From a virus (lineage: Duplodnaviria; Caudoviricetes), in the IMG/VR virus record IMGVR_UViG_2786546882_000003, positions 36,063 through 100,062 of that record: 64,000 bases of DNA, one strand, 5' to 3'. Positions 37,775 to 63,253 of the stretch are shown here, piece by piece. A model generated the notes under the pieces. The model ran no database searches. It was not told where the DNA came from and saw only the letters and a program-made list of their open reading frames with translations. How positions within the stretch are numbered: the stretch's first letter is position 1; each line of letters begins with the position of its first letter. The position numbers were made by a program, and so were the translations under genes.

Positions 37775-37949
37775 CCGATCCGGCGAGTATCAGCAGCGGA
37801 AGAACCTCTCCGGCTATGACAGGATCAAATCTCCGGTCTTCCCTTCTTCCAGCTCCATACTTGAGCGAGTTGTGATGGTAACTAAACAGTATCCACGCAG
37901 CAACAATCGCAATAAAAAGCACGACAAGACGACGTACTAGGGCCATCAT
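37737..37949 (-). CDS. possible small two-TM membrane protein
   Basis: Two hydrophobic segments; fills the gap between the two large + strand genes. Confidence 0.3.
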   Translation of the reverse strand: MMALVRRLVVLFIAIVAAWILFSYHHNSLKYGAGRREDRRFDPVIAGEVLPLLILAGSAIYCLRADPEGS

Positions 37950-40900
37950 GGTTGATCTTCTCCGAGCTGCTAGGCTAGGCACTACGCCAGCCATCCAGGA
38001 CAACGAAAAAAAGCAGCAGCGACTAACTCCGATCAGGGCGGCTACTAACCGCGCTGAGCCAGATCAGTCTATCTTATCAAGTCTTGCTAGTACAGGCTTG
38101 AGTGGACTGGCGAAAGTCGGGAACTTTTTGGACCTTCCTGGTTCGGTCGTGCGCGATGTCAGCACCTGGCTCCCAGGCGGAATCGAAGCGCAGAATCCAG
38201 TCGATCAGTTTCTTTCCCCATTCACTTCAGAGAACCGTGTCTCCGGCGAAGACATGCTCCAGTCAGCAGGTCTTGCTGGCGAGAACACTTGGGGCGGATT
38301 GGCTGGTGGAATCGCAACCGAAATCGCGCTTGACCCTTTGACTTATTTGAGTTTTGGCGCGTCGGCTGTCGGAAAAGCTGGAACAGCCGCTGGCAAGGCT
38401 GGCCTCACTAAGAACGCCAAGTCGGTCGCGAACGAACTTGCTGGCCGAACTCTAGGCAAGGAGTCAGGCAAAAGGCTTGGTGCTACCAGCGCGAGGCAAA
38501 CGCTAACGCCGCGCAATCTGATTGACGCTGCTGCGGATCCAGCGGAAGCGATGAAGCGATTCAAGGTGGCTGGTGGCACTGATGCGATGCTCGATGAGAA
38601 GCTCGGTGGAGTTGCGAAGTTTTCTGTTCCATTCTTGTCGAAGCGATACGGAGATACTGTCCCCGCCCTGCGCGAACGAGTCCTGGGGACTACCGACCTG
38701 ACGCCTTCGCAGCTCGGCGCTAAGCCTTGGATGAAGGGTGGCGATGGCCCAAGCGGTCCCGATGCAGGTAGTGCCGCAAAGCCAAAGTCACCTCTGGATC
38801 CGAATGCTGACACTGGCCTGAAGAACCCGACGCCTGAAGAGTTCTCGGCTATCTCTCCGAACCACGCTCGGTTCAACCAAGAACTAGATGGTCTTCAACA
38901 GAGTGGTATTCTTGACGACGCTGACTCTGAGATCCTTCGCGGAATCTTTAGCCAATCAGACCTTGGCGGATTCGATCGAGTTTACTTCCGTCCAGTCAAA
39001 GAGATCTCGCCTGAGGCTACTCCCGAGATCGTGTCTGCATACGGCGCGAATGTTCCAGAAATTGGCGGTGCTGCAACAAAGACTCCCGATGGCGGATTTG
39101 ATATCCAGCTTTCTCAAAAGGCGCTGGCTGATGGAAACTACGTCGACACCGGAATTGACACTCTCGTTCATGAGATCGGCCATGCTTTTTTGGAGACAAC
39201 GAAGAAGCCACAGGGCGAGGCTGGCGTTGATGTTGTTTCTGAGTTCGACAATCTGATCAAAGACGGGACTCTCGGTCGATACTTCTCCGACAACTACGGC
39301 CCTGAGAAGGCAGCATACTTCGGACAAAATCCGCACGAGGCATTCGCTCAACTGTTCGCCGACTCGGTTATCAAGCGCAAGGGCCAAGAGATGCCCAAGC
39401 CAATCGAGTCATTCTTGGGCAAGGTGCGCAAGTTTGTTTCAGACATGCTCTCAAAGGTCCTTGGAAACAAGCAGCTGAGCGGTGAGGCAAGGCTGCGAAC
39501 CGATGCGATGATTGACTTGGTCGGAGGATTTATCGGTCCAGATCAATACAAGTCGATTATCGGAAAGGCTGACTCTGCATCGTCCAAACTGGATTTCTAC
39601 AAGCCAGCTACGAGAAAGATGCCTGGCATCGAGCCTGATGCCACTGGGATGTTCAGTCAAGTCGCCAGATCTCTTGACGCCATATTCCGCGAGTCGAGTT
39701 CGCTTCCTGCTGACCAGATGCTTGCTAGGCTGAGAAAAATGCCTGGAGTCAAAGAGGAGGAGATTGCTGACCTTGGTCTTGACAAGCTCAGTGGAAAGCG
39801 ACTCAGTCGAAATGACATCACTGACCACCTCAGCAAAAACATGCTCACCATGGAGGAGGCGATCAATACTGGAGACCGCGCTGGTTTCAGTGATCTTGCA
39901 GTTCCTGGTGGCGATGATGGAACTTACCGAGAACTTATCCTCAAGGCCAATGCAGGTGGAAAGCGAATTGAGGGCGGCGCCGATACTCACTGGATGGGCG
40001 ATGATTCGATTGCGCATATCCGGCTTGACGATGTTTCGCTTGCGAACGGAGAGAAGATTCTGCGAGTCAATGAGATCCAGAGCGATTGGATCCAGGGGCT
40101 GCGCAAGTTCGGAACGAAAACCGAAGATTTGCAAAGCGAAGCGAAGTCCATCAAGAAGGAAATGTCTGGCAACGCAGTTGAGCTTTTTCTCACAAGGCAG
40201 CAGATCAAACAGCTTGGAGAAAACGCACCCCCAGAGTTGCTTGCAAAAGAACAGTCATTGACTCAGAGTGTCGAGCAAGCAAGCTCTCGCATAACTCAGA
40301 TCGGAAAGATGCCAGCCGATGCCCCGATGAAGAAGTCGTGGGACAGCATGGCCATCAAAAAGATCTTCGACTATGCAGTCGCAAATGGGTATGACGGAGT
40401 TTCATTCGTCGACGGCCAGGATATCGCAAAGGTTGTTCAAGGTCCTGCTGATGCACTAAGTGGCTTCTATAACAAGGTTCAAACTCTCGCCGGAAAAATT
40501 GCAAAGAAATACGGAAGCGGAAAGGTATCGAACGAGAAGCTGGCCGGTCAATTCATCAACGACAGCGAGGAATTGCGCCGTGGTGTGACGTTCCCTGTCA
40601 CGGACGAGATGCGAAACACGATTGGCTCAGGTGGACAGCCGAGATACAAACCAGCGGAAAAAGTGGCCGAAGCCGCCAGCGCTGCTAAACAAGGAGCAAC
40701 TAAGGCGGCATCGTACGCAAACGACATGGCAAGGAGAGCGTTGTCGTCAGTCGGTGAGCTTGCGCTAGATAAAGATCTTGGTGCTGCTGTCGGCGCCACA
40801 ATGGACACTGTTGGAGGATTCTTCAAAAACTCTGCGCCAGTGAGATACCTTCGCGCCACCATCACCCCAGAGATGCTTGGCGCTTCAACCGAGCTTGGGC

Positions 40901-43746
40901 AGGAGATCGGCCAAAAGCGATTCGAGGCTTTGCAAGAGACGAAATATGAGATGCGGAAGCGAATGTTTCCGATCGCAAAGCAATTCCTCCAGAGCGAAGC
41001 ACTTGACTACGAAAAGCTCGTCGAAAAGCTTGGCGATGCGAAGAAGGCAAGAGGCGTTCTTAACACGAATTACCTGGAGGTGACTCGCTATCTTGAAGGT
41101 GGCACGGAACTTCTGGCTAAGGGCCAATCTCCAAAACTACCCGACGAACTGAAGCCGCTCATTCCTGCGATGGATGACATTCGCACTGCGCTGGATGAGA
41201 TCAGGCAGACCGAAATCAACAGCGGCCTCAAGTCTCCTCAGCTGGACGACATGTTCATCGACTACTTGCCTCGCCAGTTACAAGGGTTCCCGAACGACAA
41301 GTCGACTGGTTCTGGGAACTTAGGCAAGTTGTTTGAATTCGGAACTCCTTACCAGAAGCAACGCAAAGAATTTTTGCGAAATCTTCCAGGCGGAACATCC
41401 TCGATCAACAAACTGTCTCTTGATCCGCTTGTTTCGGGAATCGCCCATAGCTACCCTGGGTCTAAGATACCGGACGATGTCCTTCAGGAAGCAAAGAAGT
41501 ACCTGCGTGAATCATACGGCGGTGGTCAAGCAGGAAATAGAGAGCGAGATAGTATCTTCCATCTTGACATGGATGACAACAACAACGACTTGGATAAGCT
41601 TGCTCGGTGGATCACTGGTCTAGATCCAAGACATGCTGAACTCCAGGTTCCTGTATTCAAGCTTGATCCTGTTCAAAACGTGATGAACCGAATCGAATCT
41701 GGGCTTGCAGCGTCTTCGGCTGCTGATTTTACCACTGCGATGATTGCAAAAGCGGCTACCGAAGCTGGCGAAAATATATCAGATCCGAACTTGTACGATA
41801 TCCTGGTGGATAAGTTTGCAGTCGACGGCGCGGACGGCGACAAGATCAAGGAAATCGTCATCGGAAAGATGGGAGAAACCTTTCAGACTAAGCGTTTCGC
41901 GATGCAAGATGCTGCTGACAAGCTTGCGAGATCTCAGGTCGATGAATTGATTGCGAAATCGAATGTTACTGAAGATGGGATCTTGTTTGACGAGCCAGTC
42001 GTTGGTTCGATCGGTACAAGCAAGGCTAAGTTCCTCGGTGTCAAGGGTGATCAAGTTATCTATCAGTCTTCTGGCAAGAAAGGCTATGCTCCGCTTGACT
42101 CCATCGGTGGAAAAACTGTATCAGAAAACGATGTTCTCAAACAGTTTTCTATTCCTCAGCAACTGAGTGATGCGACATTCAGGTATCTCAAGGGGTTTAC
42201 TTCGCCTGAGGCACCCGATGCTATTCGCAAAGCACTGGGTCAAATCACTAGCCTATATAAGAGTCAGTTGACGATTCCTTGGCCAGCGTTCCATGTGCGC
42301 AACCTGCTGAGTGGTCAGTATGCAAACTGGCTGAACAACGCAACTGACCCTCGATATTCCGGTCCTCGCGCGATGGTCGAGCCGATTCGCGATGCGGACA
42401 GAGTTTTCAGAGGAGAATCCATACCTGACATCCTGAGCATTCCAGCGATTAAGGAGCTGGGGATAACCGATGAGTCTCAGGCTATGGAGTGGCTGCGCCA
42501 GGAGATCTTTGCAAACAAGCTTGTCGACTTTGGCCAAGGGATTTCAGCAGAGGCAGCTGCGAACAACTTGTCAGATATTCGCTCTCAGGTTGTCGGCCAA
42601 GTTCCGAAGAAGCGACGAGACATACTCGCTAAGTTGCCTCCGAGGCCGATTGGCGCATCGAAAGCGCAATCGTTCAATCCGTTGGCCGGAGCAGGAATCC
42701 TTGGTGCGACAGAGGATACATTTGGTCCGTATCGCTGGGGTCGGCAGGTTGGTGCATACACCGAGGGAATGAACCGCATTGCTCCTTTCATAGCATTTCT
42801 TCGGCAGGGGATGGACTCGCAAGAAGCTATGCGTCGAGTTCTTGCTGCACAGTTCGACTACAGCAAGATGACTCCGGCAGATCGTGACATCAAATTGTTG
42901 ATTCCGTTTTATGGATTTTCGCGAAACGTCCTGCCGTTCGTCGTCGGCAATCTTGTTCGCGATCCAGGCGGCGCGTTAGGGATGACAGTTCGCGCCACAA
43001 GAAACGCATCGGCAAGTCAGCCGTTGCCAGACTATCTTGCTGGCCAAACTGCAATCCCGTTTGGTACGCGAGGTGATGTGTCGGAGGGTAATTCGTCGTT
43101 CCTGACAGGATTTGGATTGCCGCACGAAGACACTCTTGGTCTGGCTGGTCTAGTAACAGGCGATCCAGCAGATGGCTTCAGGAATATTTTGTCTCGGATG
43201 AATCCGCTTGCCAAATCGCCGCTTGAATTGGCGTTTGGTGAGTCTACTTTCTTTGATGCCCCTGGAGGTGGGAGAGCACTGAAAGATCTTGATCCATTGG
43301 TTGGCCGTATTGGATCGAATATCAAAGACTTGGCGACTGGGTCTGATACCATGCGTGCTCAACCAGTCATGGGATCTCCATTACTAGAGCATGCGTTAGC
43401 TAACAGTCCGTTCAGCCGCGTCTTGACGACAGCGAGAACTATTACCGATCCAAGAAAGTGGAAGAACCCACTGAAACTTGGCCTCAATCTAGGCACAGGG
43501 ATGAGAGTGACCGACGTAAGCGAAAGCTCATGGGACGCAACAGTCAGCGACTTGATCTCAGAGAGAATGAGAGAGCTAGGCAGTCGCGATTTTGTCAGGA
43601 GCTATTTTCCGCAATATGCGCAAGAAGCAATGACAGACGAACAGCTTTCAGAAGCAAACTCACTGGAAGAGTTGATGAACTGGTTAGCGAATAGAGCTAA
43701 ACAGCGCAAGGCCGATCGAGAGGCTAAAGCCAATGCGCAAAACTAA
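37948..43746 (+). CDS. giant internal virion / polyvalent-type protein (1932 aa) with zincin domain
   Basis: TLVHEIGH...HEAFAQLF; GVKEEEIADLGL, YRELIL, AHIRL, RVNEIQSDW, DAPMKKSW; C-terminal PAFHVRN, FDYS, IPFYGF. Confidence 0.75.
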   Translation: MVDLLRAARLGTTPAIQDNEKKQQRLTPIRAATNRAEPDQSILSSLASTGLSGLAKVGNFLDLPGSVVRDVSTWLPGGIEAQNPVDQFLSPFTSENRVSGEDMLQSAGLAGENTWGGLAGGIATEIALDPLTYLSFGASAVGKAGTAAGKAGLTKNAKSVANELAGRTLGKESGKRLGATSARQTLTPRNLIDAAADPAEAMKRFKVAGGTDAMLDEKLGGVAKFSVPFLSKRYGDTVPALRERVLGTTDLTPSQLGAKPWMKGGDGPSGPDAGSAAKPKSPLDPNADTGLKNPTPEEFSAISPNHARFNQELDGLQQSGILDDADSEILRGIFSQSDLGGFDRVYFRPVKEISPEATPEIVSAYGANVPEIGGAATKTPDGGFDIQLSQKALADGNYVDTGIDTLVHEIGHAFLETTKKPQGEAGVDVVSEFDNLIKDGTLGRYFSDNYGPEKAAYFGQNPHEAFAQLFADSVIKRKGQEMPKPIESFLGKVRKFVSDMLSKVLGNKQLSGEARLRTDAMIDLVGGFIGPDQYKSIIGKADSASSKLDFYKPATRKMPGIEPDATGMFSQVARSLDAIFRESSSLPADQMLARLRKMPGVKEEEIADLGLDKLSGKRLSRNDITDHLSKNMLTMEEAINTGDRAGFSDLAVPGGDDGTYRELILKANAGGKRIEGGADTHWMGDDSIAHIRLDDVSLANGEKILRVNEIQSDWIQGLRKFGTKTEDLQSEAKSIKKEMSGNAVELFLTRQQIKQLGENAPPELLAKEQSLTQSVEQASSRITQIGKMPADAPMKKSWDSMAIKKIFDYAVANGYDGVSFVDGQDIAKVVQGPADALSGFYNKVQTLAGKIAKKYGSGKVSNEKLAGQFINDSEELRRGVTFPVTDEMRNTIGSGGQPRYKPAEKVAEAASAAKQGATKAASYANDMARRALSSVGELALDKDLGAAVGATMDTVGGFFKNSAPVRYLRATITPEMLGASTELGQEIGQKRFEALQETKYEMRKRMFPIAKQFLQSEALDYEKLVEKLGDAKKARGVLNTNYLEVTRYLEGGTELLAKGQSPKLPDELKPLIPAMDDIRTALDEIRQTEINSGLKSPQLDDMFIDYLPRQLQGFPNDKSTGSGNLGKLFEFGTPYQKQRKEFLRNLPGGTSSINKLSLDPLVSGIAHSYPGSKIPDDVLQEAKKYLRESYGGGQAGNRERDSIFHLDMDDNNNDLDKLARWITGLDPRHAELQVPVFKLDPVQNVMNRIESGLAASSAADFTTAMIAKAATEAGENISDPNLYDILVDKFAVDGADGDKIKEIVIGKMGETFQTKRFAMQDAADKLARSQVDELIAKSNVTEDGILFDEPVVGSIGTSKAKFLGVKGDQVIYQSSGKKGYAPLDSIGGKTVSENDVLKQFSIPQQLSDATFRYLKGFTSPEAPDAIRKALGQITSLYKSQLTIPWPAFHVRNLLSGQYANWLNNATDPRYSGPRAMVEPIRDADRVFRGESIPDILSIPAIKELGITDESQAMEWLRQEIFANKLVDFGQGISAEAAANNLSDIRSQVVGQVPKKRRDILAKLPPRPIGASKAQSFNPLAGAGILGATEDTFGPYRWGRQVGAYTEGMNRIAPFIAFLRQGMDSQEAMRRVLAAQFDYSKMTPADRDIKLLIPFYGFSRNVLPFVVGNLVRDPGGALGMTVRATRNASASQPLPDYLAGQTAIPFGTRGDVSEGNSSFLTGFGLPHEDTLGLAGLVTGDPADGFRNILSRMNPLAKSPLELAFGESTFFDAPGGGRALKDLDPLVGRIGSNIKDLATGSDTMRAQPVMGSPLLEHALANSPFSRVLTTARTITDPRKWKNPLKLGLNLGTGMRVTDVSESSWDATVSDLISERMRELGSRDFVRSYFPQYAQEAMTDEQLSEANSLEELMNWLANRAKQRKADREAKANAQN

Positions 43747-43910
43747 CATCCTCCAGCTCGAACACAAATCTGTCTACGAATGTTTTCAATCTTGTCCGGT
43801 GCAGCAGCAGGTCAGCACTAGCGCCTCCGCAGTATACTCCCTGCATGGCACTTCGCATTCCTATGAACTGATGCTTGGATAGTCGAAGCGTTGACATGAG
43901 TGGAGACATT

Positions 43911-44002
43911 AAAAACCTTGACTTATCTTACCATGTCGTACCATAACGTAACCCAACCCAACGGAACATGCTTTAACTTAACAAAGCAAAACTCGCGTTA
44001 AC
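43911..44002 (-). ncRNA. pentamer guide unit E (17 triplet+NN repeats, tail GTCAAGGTTTTT)
   Basis: - strand: gttAA cgcGA gttTT gctTT gttAA gttAA agcAT gttCC gttGG gttGG gttAC gttAT ggtAC gacAT ggtAA gatAA gtcAA ggttttt. Confidence 0.8.
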
Positions 44003-44010
44003 CGGCGATA

Positions 44011-44490
44011 CTACTTATTGAAAAGACTAAGTGTCTCTCCAATAGAAATCTCACTTGTAGACTTCTGGACCTTTGTTGCGATCTTTTTCGCAGATGTCTT
44101 CTTTGAAAACAGCGATATAGCTCCCATCTGCGCCGAAGCTACCACATGCTGTCTCTTGTAATCTTCCGGAAGAGAGTCGAACTTAACGACACTCAGTTTG
44201 TCGAGAGTCCTTTTTGACGCCCGAAGTATCCTAACTCTGTCGCTTTCGGTTGTGTCGACAATCTCCTCGTCATCGAGTCGCTTTAGCCCAACCCCTCGCT
44301 CTACCCCGAAGACAATACCACATTCGAGCAGTAAGCTTCGCCTCGCCGTGACTAGCGATGAAGATGCATGCTTACGCACGTCCCGGCCAATGGCCGTGCT
44401 AATTTCATCGTATGTTATTAACTGACCGACACTGGCAGCTTTGAGCATAGACTCAATAATTCGAGTGTCGGATGATTTTTCGTGGATCAT
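44011..44490 (-). CDS. accessory protein of the RAMP/pentamer locus, winged-helix-like N-terminus
   Basis: GQLITYDEISTAIGRDV...VFGVERGVGLKRL; embedded between units D and E. Confidence 0.65.
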   Translation of the reverse strand: MIHEKSSDTRIIESMLKAASVGQLITYDEISTAIGRDVRKHASSSLVTARRSLLLECGIVFGVERGVGLKRLDDEEIVDTTESDRVRILRASKRTLDKLSVVKFDSLPEDYKRQHVVASAQMGAISLFSKKTSAKKIATKVQKSTSEISIGETLSLFNK

Positions 44491-44523
44491 GGTGCATCTT
44501 CATCCTGAAAGGATCGTTATCCG

Positions 44524-44616
44524 AAAAAACCTTGACTTGTCTTGGCGCACTGCAACCAAACGAAACATAACGCAACAGGACCAAACAAAACGAGCCCTAA
44601 CGAAACGCAATGCGTT
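44524..44616 (-). ncRNA. pentamer guide unit D
   Basis: - strand: aacGC attGC gttTC gttAG ggcTC gttTT gttTG gtcCT gttGC gttAT gttTC gttTG gttGC agtGC gccAA gacAA gtcAA ggtttttt. Confidence 0.78.
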
Positions 44617-44621
44617 GAAAT

Positions 44622-44704
44622 AAAAAACCTTGACTTGTCTTACCAAAGCGCAACTCAACTCAACGAAACCAAACCCAACCTGACCCAACGAAACTAAACG
44701 CGAC
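44622..44704 (-). ncRNA. pentamer guide unit C
   Basis: - strand: gtcGC gttTA gttTC gttGG gtcAG gttGG gttTG gttTC gttGA gttGA gttGC gctTT ggtAA gacAA gtcAA ggtttttt. Confidence 0.8.
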
Positions 44705-44725
44705 TAATTGTATTGTTGTTGTGTT

Positions 44726-44813
44726 AAAAAGCCTTGACTTACCTCTCCGTGTCACAACGCAACTCACTCCAACGCAACCATACTCAGCACAACGCATCTA
44801 AACACAACGAGAA
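44726..44813 (-). ncRNA. pentamer guide unit B
   Basis: - strand: ttcTC gttGT gttTA gatGC gttGT gctGA gtaTG gttGC gttGG agtGA gttGC gttGT gacAC ggaGA ggtAA gtcAA ggcttttt. Confidence 0.78.
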
Positions 44814-44825
44814 TCAGTGCCAAGA

Positions 44826-45383
44826 CTAAACCCAGTCAACATCCTCAACGGAAAATCGACCGTAATAGCCGTTGTTTCTTGGGCGGAATCTGCCAACTCC
44901 GATGAACGAACCGGCGTCACGAAGGTGCTCAGTGAATACGTCTTTCGTGATAATCTCGTCAAGCACTAGGAACTCAACGACACCATCCCAATTCTGAACA
45001 AGCGGAAAGCACTTCTCTACTCGCTTGCTTCCTCCGCGCCGACCGTCGCTTGGAACGTGCAGCCATTCTCCGTGGATGTCGTCGATCTTTGTGTCAAGAA
45101 CGAGCGGCTCGACCACAAGAATCCCGGCTTCAAAGTGCTTTGTAAATGTTGACTTTCCTTTGCCTGGGATCTGGATTGATTTGTACTTTGCGGCTTCGGC
45201 CAGGCAGTTCTTAAAGCACATTGGTGGAATGAACAAATTGCCTTCTTTTGTAACGTGGCAGCGTTCTTTCCACACTCGCTTTTCAAAGTCTGCGTGAGTC
45301 TCGTCGCGACTCTTTTCGGACTGAATGAATCGGCCTTGGGAGTACGGGCTTGCACTCTTCAGGCGGCAGATTGCTTTCTTCAC
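44826..45383 (-). CDS. stand-alone RAMP/Cas7-like RNA-binding protein (Vipr-like), 185 aa
   Basis: N-terminal strand ICRLKSASPY, FIPPMCFKNCLAEAA (RAMP yiPg.s.Kg.l motif), C-terminal Gly-rich loop AGSFIGVGRFRPRNNGYYGRFSV; GTG start inferred. Confidence 0.75.
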   Translation of the reverse strand: MKKAICRLKSASPYSQGRFIQSEKSRDETHADFEKRVWKERCHVTKEGNLFIPPMCFKNCLAEAAKYKSIQIPGKGKSTFTKHFEAGILVVEPLVLDTKIDDIHGEWLHVPSDGRRGGSKRVEKCFPLVQNWDGVVEFLVLDEIITKDVFTEHLRDAGSFIGVGRFRPRNNGYYGRFSVEDVDWV

Positions 45384-45532: not shown

Positions 45533-45624
45533 AAAAACCATGACATACCGTGACAGAACTCATCGTACTTTAACACAACGCATCTTGACGTATCAGGACG
45601 TGCTACGCCGTACGTCGACGTGTT
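45533..45624 (-). ncRNA. pentamer guide unit A
   Basis: - strand: aacAC gtcGA cgtAC ggcGT agcAC gtcCT gatAC gtcAA gatGC gttGT gttAA agtAC gatGA gttCT gtcAC ggtAT gtcAT ggttttt. Confidence 0.75.
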
Positions 45625-45696: not shown

Positions 45697-46203
45697 CTAT
45701 GCGCTGTAGTCAGGCAGCGCTTCGCAGACCTCGTAAAGAAACTCGACGGTCACGAGACCGCCAGCAGTGAATTTCTCGTCCGATGCAGTTCCACCAGTCT
45801 GGCAAGTGTAGAGCGATACTGTCGTTTCACTTGCAATGACTGCATGCGCAATCATGCTTGTGACTTTCGTATTCGCTGTCAGCGCAGACGTGAGCCCGTA
45901 AAGATCTGGATCTGCGGCAGTTCCAACTCCGATTTTTGCGAAATTGTCTGACCCGGAGCCGTCGCCGGTTACAGCCGTGTCGATTCGAGCACGAACTGCC
46001 TTGACAACAGCCCCCGCTGGAAGAGTATTTGTCAAGTCGACCTTGAGCGAGTTTGTCAATGTGACTTGCTCGCTGAAAGACACCAAGTCTGTGATGTCTT
46101 GCTCGACCTCAACCTCTTCCAAGATCTCCTTGATCTCGTCCGCAGCTGCCTTGTTGCCAAGCGCCGTCTGTAGGGACCGCACGGTCCCGCTCTTCAGTGT
46201 CAT
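45697..46203 (-). CDS. virion-type beta-sandwich protein (capsid decoration-like)
   Basis: TLPAGAVVKAV....TAVT, IGVGTAADPDLY, FTAGGLVTVEFLY pattern. Confidence 0.55.
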   Translation of the reverse strand: MTLKSGTVRSLQTALGNKAAADEIKEILEEVEVEQDITDLVSFSEQVTLTNSLKVDLTNTLPAGAVVKAVRARIDTAVTGDGSGSDNFAKIGVGTAADPDLYGLTSALTANTKVTSMIAHAVIASETTVSLYTCQTGGTASDEKFTAGGLVTVEFLYEVCEALPDYSA

Positions 46204-63166: not shown

Positions 63167-63181
63167 GTTGCTTCCATTGAG

Positions 63182-63253
63182 CAGGGTGCTAGGGAATCGA
63201 ACCCCAATTGTCCGCTCAGAAGGCGGTTGTCTTATCCATTAGACGAGCACCCC
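63182..63253 (-). tRNA. tRNA-Arg(TCT)
   Basis: Acceptor GGGGTGC/GCACCCT, D-arm GTCT/AGAC, anticodon loop CTTCTGA, T-arm TGGGG TTCGATT CCCTA; one mismatch in the anticodon stem; no encoded CCA. Confidence 0.85.

What the first reader, a model, noticed from the sequence alone, without database searches (positions are those of the whole stretch)
43911..44002. Unit E decodes to a diverged copy of the phage's own giant-protein gene (41365-41415)
The NN series is AA GA TT TT AA AA AT CC GG GG AC AT AC AT AA AA AA. As codon positions 1-2 this is compatible with K-E-F-L-K-N-I-P-G-G-T-I-T-I-N-K. The 1932-aa gene at 41365-41415 reads aaa gaa ttt ttg cga aat ctt cca ggc gga aca tcc tcg atc aac aaa ctg (KEFLRNLPGGTSSINKL). 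By hand, 12/17 dinucleotides and 26/34 bases match with no gaps, same sense as the mRNA. A rough binomial estimate gives below about 1e-4 such hits by chance in both strands of 64 kb. Two mismatches are conservative (R/K, L/I), as expected if the true target is the orthologue in a related phage.
Basis: seen in the sequence. Interest (0 to 1): 0.93.

Follow-up and report, generated by a model that had tools for sequence, protein, structure and literature searches.

The report
VIPR guide spelling rival giant-gene motif
Unit E is a guide RNA of a phage-borne VIPR system (a CRISPR-related DNA silencer described in 2026); it spells, two bases per codon, a conserved motif of the phage's own giant virion-protein gene in the version carried by related phages, so it is most likely aimed at rivals while the resident copy escapes through a few mismatches.

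Summary
Read on the minus strand, unit E (43911-44002) is 17 pentamers, mostly GTT+NN. Its NN series matches 41365-41415 under the one-base-skip rule at 26/34 bases. The match is in frame with the 1932-aa gene, and the skipped base falls on the wobble position. None of 3000 shuffled guides reached 26 on the 100-kb contig (expected about 1e-4 to 1e-3). Skips of 0, 2 and 3 gave only background. In the whole 3.56-Mb assembly the next best site scores 23/34.

The setting is a known kind of system, VIPR (bioRxiv 2026). There is a Vipr gene with a Cas7-like fold that is homologous to the solved SUSP1 Vipr, a conserved vap gene, and five vrRNA units. The last three AA dinucleotides lie in the conserved 3' tail. 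The true guide is therefore 14 NN, scoring 22/28 on the resident gene, just under the published 80% target threshold.

The site lies on the conserved FLKNIPGGTxTIN block. The five nearest relatives carry K, I and T where the resident gene has R, L and S, which is what the guide spells. I could not obtain the relatives' DNA, so the rival target is supported at protein level only.

This scan has already reported VIPR on at least 35 other genomes, including the same rival-allele logic. This is a new member of a known kind.

The parts
43933..44002 (-). vrRNA unit E, guide part: 14 pentamers (11 with a G-K-Y handle, mostly GTT; the others CGC, GCT, AGC). NN series AA GA TT TT AA AA AT CC GG GG AC AT AC AT.
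   Evidence: Pentamer parsing. A 5-base AAC/GTT periodicity is found only at 43.9-44.8 kb of the window.
43911..43932 (-). vrRNA unit E, constant 3' tail: GGTAA GATAA GTCAA GG TTTTT
   Evidence: The same tail closes units D, C and B, with a variant on A. In 54 units of related loci the last three NN are mostly AA.
41365..41415 (+). Partial target-like site in the resident giant gene (codons 1140-1156, KEFLRNLPGGTSSINKL): 26/34 with the tail, 22/28 for the guide alone.
37948..43746 (+). Giant 1932-aa gene at the end of the structural module. It has no Pfam or PHROG hit itself. Its nearest relatives (2207-3019 aa) include proteins with an ART-PolyVal domain, so it is probably a polyvalent-type virion protein (inferred).
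44011..44490 (-). vap-like accessory gene (159 aa)
   Evidence: A homologue lies next to vipr on the same strand in 28 of 46 related loci. No Pfam family matched. The single-sequence model has low confidence.
44524..44813 (-). vrRNA units D (44524-44606), C (44622-44704) and B (44726-44808), each 15 pentamers plus GG and a T-run.
44826..45383 (-). vipr gene (185 aa, Cas7-like RAMP)
   Evidence: phrog_4652 at 5e-12. BLASTP to SUSP1 YP_009199429 at 6e-10. A profile hits PDB 36pp 'SUSP1 Vipr protein' at 2e-9. The model has pLDDT 90.8 and its best fold matches are Cas7 subunits.
45533..45619 (-). Unit A, an upstream and degenerate vrRNA-like unit (handles GTC, GAT, GTT, CGT and others; tail GTCAT GG TTTTT).

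Best explanation
Unit E is one of five vrRNAs of a VIPR system (vipr 44826-45383, vap 44011-44490, all on the minus strand) carried by a marine siphovirus-like phage. By analogy with the characterised SUSP1 system, Vipr protomers would assemble along the RNA. Each would hold a G-K-Y handle (here mostly GUU) and present the next two bases. The complex would then bind double-stranded DNA that matches the NN series with every third base skipped, and block transcription.

The 14-NN guide of unit E spells codon positions 1-2 of [K/N][D/E][F/L][F/L][K/N][K/N][I/M]PGGT[I/M]T[I/M]. This is the conserved FLKNIPGGTxTI block of the giant polyvalent-type virion protein, in the form carried by related phages.

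I infer that the guide silences that gene in co-infecting or resident relatives. The resident copy differs at four codons (R, L, S, S; 6 of 28 guide bases), which puts it just under the published 80% target threshold.

Shown here: the repeat anatomy, the Vipr homology and fold, the vap synteny, the significance and frame of the match, and the relatives' peptides.
Inferred: transcription and processing of unit E, binding, silencing, and that a rival with a match of 80% or more exists.
For: Match statistics: 26/34, or 22/28 without the tail, seen only with the one-base skip. None of 3000 shuffles reached it, and it is the best site in the whole 3.56-Mb assembly. The skipped base is the wobble position and the match is in frame, as published for natural VIPR targets.

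VIPR identity of the locus: Vipr sequence and fold; pentamer units with a constant handle, variable NN and a constant tail; vap synteny; and SUSP1 shows the same layout of one unit upstream and three downstream.

The site overlaps the most conserved block of the 217-aa stretch across 144 homologues.

The nearest relatives carry I at position 7 and T at position 13 in all five cases, and K at position 5 in two of five. That agrees with the guide where the resident gene does not, and P0007 allows up to 26/28. Ser at position 13 of the resident gene is nearly unique in the family.

The published systems show no self hit at 80% or more, and show self-match scores lower than rival-match scores.
Against: No nucleotide-level target at 80% or more was found in any phage. 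Exact-pattern scans of IMG/VR found nothing. The one distant orthologue with DNA available scores 20/34.

Guide position 12 (AT) fits none of 125 homologues. Across the wider family, R at position 5 is commoner than K.

The peptide compatibilities are upper bounds, because codon choice (for example CTN Leu) is unknown. There is no expression evidence for unit E. Three handles of unit E (CGC, GCT, AGC) depart from G-K-Y.
Confidence: 0.62

Rival explanations
1. Relic or self-derived guide. The NN series descends from an older state of the phage's own gene, or of a recombined relative. It now has no living target, and the similarity to the resident gene is a historical trace.
For: The guide agrees with the clade-typical (possibly ancestral) residues at three of four mismatches. 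No perfect target was found anywhere. Position 12 fits no known family member.
Against: No mechanism is known that writes a gene's codon positions 1-2 into a pentamer array. The unit keeps an intact tail and mostly intact handles. Sampling of this phage clade is very thin, with five near relatives among billions of proteins, so a missing target says little.
Confidence: 0.15
2. Self-regulation. The partial match lets the phage's own VIPR complex bind weakly inside its giant late gene and damp or time its transcription.
For: The only significant site for any of the five guides is in the phage's own genome. VIPR silences from either strand inside transcription units. Decoy REP sites are counted in the literature down to identity 0.72.
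Against: The site lies 3.4 kb inside a 5.8-kb gene, not near a promoter. The published systems have no self hit at 80% or more and interpret low self-match as avoidance of autoimmunity. The mismatches fall where relatives agree with the guide, which a self-tuned guide would not need.
Confidence: 0.12
3. Chance. The 26/34 match is a coincidence among five guides and 200,000 positions.
For: Five guides, and possibly four skip rules, were inspected. At terabase scale a 14-NN guide finds 25/28 hits by chance, as the Chitinophagales hit shows.
Against: The expected number is about 1e-4 to 1e-3 per guide per contig, so at most about 5e-3 after correcting for five guides. The skip rule was fixed beforehand by the literature. 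The match is in frame and overlaps the family's conserved block. Three of four mismatches agree with the relatives.
Confidence: 0.04
4. The real target is unrelated to the giant gene, for example the Chitinophagales T9SS surface-protein gene that matches 12 consecutive NN (25/28).
For: L005 and L052 match guide positions 3-14 perfectly, including position 12, which the search pattern left free. That exceeds the published 80% threshold.
Against: The two hits are one gene of one species (94% identical over 7 kb), found in searches of the order of a trillion bases with a pattern I built from the guide. About 0.1-1 such hit is expected by chance. It is a chromosomal gene of an unrelated bacterium beside housekeeping genes. 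It has no homologue in the assembly that holds the phage.
Confidence: 0.03

Closest known systems
Type II VIPR of Escherichia phage SUSP1 and the P. fulva prophage (bioRxiv 10.64898/2026.04.26.720920; structures 10.64898/2026.04.26.720927; PDB 36pp)
   Same: A small Cas7-like Vipr protein, with a homologous G-loop end (GVGRFRPR..GRFSVE against GVGDWRPRFGRFSVE). A neighbouring small accessory gene. vrRNAs of about 90 nt made of pentamers with a constant triplet and variable NN, followed by a constant 3' tail. One unit upstream and three downstream of vipr. The one-base-skip rule with the skipped base on the wobble position. No self hit at 80% or more.
   Different: The handle here is mostly GUU (G-K-Y across the subfamily) rather than GGY. 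The tail is short, (xxxAA)2-3 GG U-run, with no evident pseudoknot. The vap shows no detectable similarity to SUSP1 vap1. A fifth unit follows vap. Identity to SUSP1 Vipr is detectable only over the C-terminal half. The inferred target is a giant virion-protein gene of related phages, not a satellite or a lysogeny regulator.
Solo and VIPR+ phage vrRNAs that target relatives' VIPR loci while scoring lower on self (bioRxiv 10.64898/2026.10.15.759431)
   Same: The guide resembles the carrier's own sequence but matches the rival's version better, so it distinguishes self from rival by a few NN mismatches. The codon periodicity of the guide limits escape by synonymous change.
   Different: There the targets are vipr genes or vrRNAs, and the rival matches were shown at DNA level. 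Here the target class is a structural or injected giant protein gene, and the rival match is inferred from peptides only.
Class 1 CRISPR Cas7 backbone with crRNA (type III Csm3, type VII Cas7)
   Same: The RAMP fold. The best Foldseek matches have probability 1.0 and TM about 0.55. Protomers tile a guide RNA with a fixed period.
   Different: There is no CRISPR array, no other cas genes and no spacer-repeat structure. The period is 5 with only 2 read bases, and the target is read with a period of 3.

Membership tests
VIPR system | Vipr protein: a minimal RAMP (RRM core, G-loop, thumb) homologous to described Vipr proteins | tested here: met
   A profile of 19 subfamily members hits PDB 36pp 'SUSP1 Vipr protein' at E 2e-9. 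Pairwise BLASTP to the SUSP1 protein gives 6e-10. The AF2 model has pLDDT 90.8 and its top fold matches are Cas7 of type VII and type III CRISPR. The thumb was not inspected separately.
VIPR system | vrRNA: 9-16 tandem pentamers with a conserved triplet and hypervariable NN, then a constant 3' tail | tested here: met
   There are five units of 15-17 pentamers with a shared tail. In 54 units from 20 related loci the handles are GGC, GGT, GTC and GTT, the body NN use all 16 dinucleotides, and the last three NN are mostly AA. The handle here is GTT/G-K-Y rather than the published GGY. The paper allows 'a related consensus', but I could not see its figure.
VIPR system | Minimal locus: vipr plus a vap gene, with no CRISPR array or other cas genes, on a viral genome | tested here: met
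   The window encodes terminase, portal, head and tape-measure proteins. A homologue of the 159-aa gene lies beside vipr in 28 of 46 related loci. No other cas-like gene was noticed near the locus, but I ran no dedicated cas search. The DNA-binding nature of vap was not shown, because the model has pLDDT 45.
VIPR system | One-base-skip targeting rule, with the skipped base on the codon wobble position | tested here: met
   Only skip 1 gives a hit above the null, and that hit is in frame with the skipped base at codon position 3. This rests on one guide and one sub-threshold site.
VIPR system | vrRNAs are expressed as RNAs of about 100 nt and co-purify with Vipr | not testable with these tools
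   No listed RNA run holds the stretch. One 131-nt metatranscriptome contig resembles part of unit C at 31/36 bases but comes from a relative. This is not evidence either way.
VIPR natural target (published criterion) | At least 80% of NN positions match, without gaps, in a competing mobile element | tested here: not met
   The resident site scores 22/28 (78.6%) or 26/34 (76.5%). No phage DNA at 80% or more was found. Relatives' peptides allow up to 26/28, but their DNA was not obtainable.

The most novel reading that the evidence does not exclude
The resident giant gene has been pushed away from the clade-typical motif (R, L, S, S in place of K, I, x, T) by the phage's own guide. VIPR would then act as a kin-discrimination or superinfection-exclusion device among closely related phages. 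Guide and self gene would co-evolve, and the GUU handle would mark a Vipr lineage with changed handle specificity. If guides are in some way copied from relatives' coding sequence, that would point to a still unknown way of acquiring guides.
Probability: 0.25. Interest if true: 0.65.

Novelty: new member of a known kind. Interest (0 to 1): 0.42.

Why it matters
VIPR was described only in 2026, and its natural targets are known for a few clades (satellites, prophage regulators, rival VIPR loci). This case adds a marine phage whose guide is aimed at a conserved motif of a giant virion-protein gene that the phage itself carries in a mismatched form. It is a clean example of self/rival discrimination by a handful of codon changes, and the handle is mostly GUU rather than GGY. 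It also yields a testable pair of sites, resident against relative-type, for measuring how many NN mismatches VIPR tolerates.

Tried and rejected
Sources that gave no relative's DNA:
- The search for related loci with the giant-protein segment or alignments found nothing in viral contigs with a single protein.
- With alignment A1 it found one distant orthologue, L003, which scores 20/34.
- It found nothing in metagenome contigs or genome contigs. Alignment A2 was too diverse to search with.
- The genome search over 400 genomes of the same order found no orthologue.

Pattern scans:
- Exact guide patterns in IMG/VR gave no hits.
- A relaxed pattern in metagenome contigs and genome contigs gave one Chitinophagales surface-protein gene. 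I judge it to be at chance level for that database size.

Other checks that led nowhere:
- blastn of the region against GenBank phages gave no match.
- Rfam gave no family in 43500-45200.
- The sigma-70 reading of the plus-strand AAAAACCTTGACTT was rejected. It is the reverse complement of the vrRNA tail, and no -10 box follows it.
- My first idea, a TRAP-like protein-sponge RNA, was dropped once the VIPR papers were read.
- Guides from related loci have no site at 80% or more in this contig. Guides A-E have no hit in the 46 related loci. No guide is shared between loci.
- Sequencing runs: no RNA holder is listed. The 243-nt contig of run X5 over 41387-41425 reads in another frame context and was judged unrelated.
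- The vap single-sequence model was too poor (pLDDT 45.5) to use for a fold search.
- The PF18962 search of the window's own genome was uninformative, because the controls also failed to match.
- The host taxon was not determined.

Full report
**What is at the coordinates**

The plus strand of 43911-44002 reads AAAAACCTTGACTT followed by a run of NNAAC steps. Three more such units lie at 44524-44813, and a degenerate one lies at 45533-45619. A scan for 5-base AAC periodicity finds it nowhere else in the 64-kb window.

Read on the minus strand, each unit is 15-17 pentamers with a constant triplet followed by two variable bases. The triplet is mostly GTT, with GTC, GGT, GAC, CGC, GCT and AGC as variants. 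Each unit closes with a shared tail, GGTAA GAYAA GTCAA GG and a run of five or six T. The promoter-like TTGACT on the plus strand is simply the reverse complement of that tail. No -10 box follows it, and Rfam has no matching family.

**The system**

VIPR systems consist of:
- a small Cas7-like Vipr protein;
- an accessory vap gene;
- vrRNAs made of 9-16 pentamers (GGY handle plus NN) followed by a constant 3' tail.

The complex binds double-stranded DNA that matches the NN series with every third base skipped. Natural targets are called at 80% NN match or more. The skipped base falls on the wobble position, and no self hit reaches 80%.

The locus here meets the family's features.
- **Vipr.** The 185-aa minus-strand gene 44826-45383 hits phrog_4652. 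It aligns to the SUSP1 protein YP_009199429 over the G-loop end (BLASTP 6e-10). As a 19-member profile it hits PDB 36pp 'SUSP1 Vipr protein' at E 2e-9. Its AlphaFold model (pLDDT 90.8) has Cas7 subunits of type VII and type III CRISPR complexes as best fold matches (probability 1.0).
- **SUSP1 comparison.** The SUSP1 locus I fetched shows the published GGTNN arrays in the same layout, one upstream and three downstream.
- **Abundance.** More than 3000 homologues of this Vipr exist in metagenomes, and 46 related loci could be fetched from IMG/VR.
- **Related vrRNAs.** In those loci the handles are GGC, then GGT, GTC and GTT in falling order. The body NN use all 16 dinucleotides, and the last three NN are mostly AA. 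The GTT handle of this phage is therefore a minority form of a G-K-Y consensus, and the trailing AA pentamers belong to the tail.
- **vap.** The 159-aa gene 44011-44490 has a homologue beside vipr in 28 of the 46 loci, so it is the vap of this subfamily. Its fold could not be modelled.
- **Carrier.** The window is a tailed phage, with terminase, portal, head protease/capsid, tape measure and replication genes. It sits on a 100,062-bp contig of a 3.56-Mb marine metagenome assembly.

**The claimed match**

With one skipped base it matches 41365-41415 at 12/17 dinucleotides and 26/34 bases. The match is in frame with the 1932-aa gene (codons 1140-1156), with the skipped base at codon position 3.

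The nulls all point the same way.
- In 3000 shuffles of NN order, scored on both strands of the whole contig, the maximum averaged 20.9 and never exceeded 25. The expected number of sites at 26 or more is about 1e-4.
- Skips of 0, 2 and 3 give 21/34, the background level.
- Using the rest of the assembly as a decoy, the site is the single best among 7 million positions. The next best is 23/34, and that tail extrapolates to about 1e-3 per 100 kb.
- Without the three tail dinucleotides the score is 22/28. This is still above all shuffles and above every other site in the assembly, where the next best is 19/28.

After correcting for five guides the match stays significant, at about 5e-3 or less. 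The other four units have no significant site. Unit C reaches 18/24 at 43037 and unit A 22/32 at 46071, each with p of about 0.08 on the contig, and each is equalled or beaten elsewhere in the assembly.

**What the site is**

The giant protein has no Pfam or PHROG match. It does have 144 homologues over the 217-aa stretch around the site. The nearest (P0003, P0007, P0268) carry an ART-PolyVal domain, so it belongs to the polyvalent giant-protein class.

The guide footprint overlaps the most conserved block of that stretch, with consensus LKNIPGGTxTINxxSxDP.

The guide decodes to [K/N][D/E][F/L][F/L][K/N][K/N][I/M]PGGT[I/M]T[I/M]. The resident gene reads KEFLRNLPGGTSSI. The five nearest relatives read as follows:

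| Protein | Peptide at the site |
|---|---|
| P0007 | KDFLKNIPGGTATI |
| P0003 and P0268 | QDFLTNIPGGTATI |
| P0006 | LPFLKNIPGGTATL |
| P0048 | KDFLTNIPGGTYTI |

At three of the four codons where guide and resident gene disagree, the relatives agree with the guide: Ile at position 7 and Thr at position 13 in all five, and Lys at position 5 in two. The resident Ser at position 13 is almost unique among 125 homologues. P0007 allows up to 26/28.

If the guide bases at the four mismatched positions were random, agreement with one relative at three of them would have a probability of about 1e-3 (my estimate).

Position 12 of the guide (AT) fits no sampled homologue. Across the wider family, Arg at position 5 is commoner than Lys. 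The guide therefore fits the near clade rather than the whole family.

**The search for a real target**

The one distant orthologue with DNA available scores 20/34 at the orthologous place. Exact guide patterns found nothing in IMG/VR.

A relaxed pattern found one gene in both the metagenome and the genome collection. It is a T9SS surface protein of a Chitinophagales bacterium, and the two records are 94% identical. It matches guide positions 3-14 perfectly, 25/28 overall. In searches of that size (596 billion bases in genome contigs alone, both strands), about 0.1-1 such hit is expected by chance, depending on base composition. The gene is chromosomal, sits beside housekeeping genes, and is absent from the assembly that holds the phage. 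I treat it as chance. It also shows that the 80% rule is not specific for a 14-NN guide at that scale.

**Reading**

The most likely explanation (0.62) is that unit E directs Vipr to the giant-protein gene of related phages, and that the resident copy is spared by six mismatched bases at four codons. This matches published VIPR behaviour:
- guides track codon periodicity of conserved genes;
- self scores lie below rival scores.

Three alternatives remain: a relic guide, weak self-regulation, or chance. They are set out with their tests in the rival explanations. Binding, silencing and expression are inferred, not shown.

**Novelty**

The system is known, and this scan has already recorded it on at least 35 other genomes. 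That includes a guide that spells rivals' endolysin while the carrier's own copy differs. This finding is a further member. Two points are of modest interest: the mostly GUU handle with a short AA-rich tail, and a giant polyvalent-type protein gene as the inferred target.

Noticed in passing
window 44554-44699: In the likely source sample, Logan contigs break inside the vrRNA array and continue as other NNAAC-type pentamer arrays (loose ends at 44554, 44557, 44589, 44593, 44655, 44699). Co-occurring variants or relatives with different guides may share the tails.
   Followed up: no
window 44664-44699: A 131-nt contig from a marine metatranscriptome run (X6) matches part of unit C on the minus strand at 31/36 bases. 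It comes from a relative, so it is only a faint hint that arrays of this kind reach RNA libraries.
   Followed up: no
L005:2892-2926 (-) and L052:4126-4160 (+): A Chitinophagales T9SS surface-protein gene (HYR and Por_Secre_tail domains) matches guide E at 25/28 with 12 consecutive perfect NN (peptide GQFFKNMPGGTITISRT). I judge it to be at chance level for a search of the order of a trillion bases, but it exceeds the published 80% criterion.
   Followed up: partly
L006-L051 (46 IMG/VR loci): Within one Vipr subfamily (46-70% identity) the vrRNA handle differs between loci: GGC in L009, L014, L019, L022 and L024; GGT in L023; GTC in L008 and L020; GTT in L015 and this window; mixed in L006 and L007. 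Handle specificity seems to drift within G-K-Y.
   Followed up: partly
Each has p of about 0.08 against shuffles and is equalled or beaten elsewhere in the 3.56-Mb assembly, so neither is significant alone.
   Followed up: yes
window 63181-63253 (-): A tRNA-Arg (TCT) gene lies at the end of the phage's replication module.
   Followed up: no
L022:8213-8267 (-): A short GTTGA/GTTGT pentamer run lies on the strand opposite to vipr in a related locus whose main arrays use GGC handles. It may be a foreign or solo unit.
   Followed up: no
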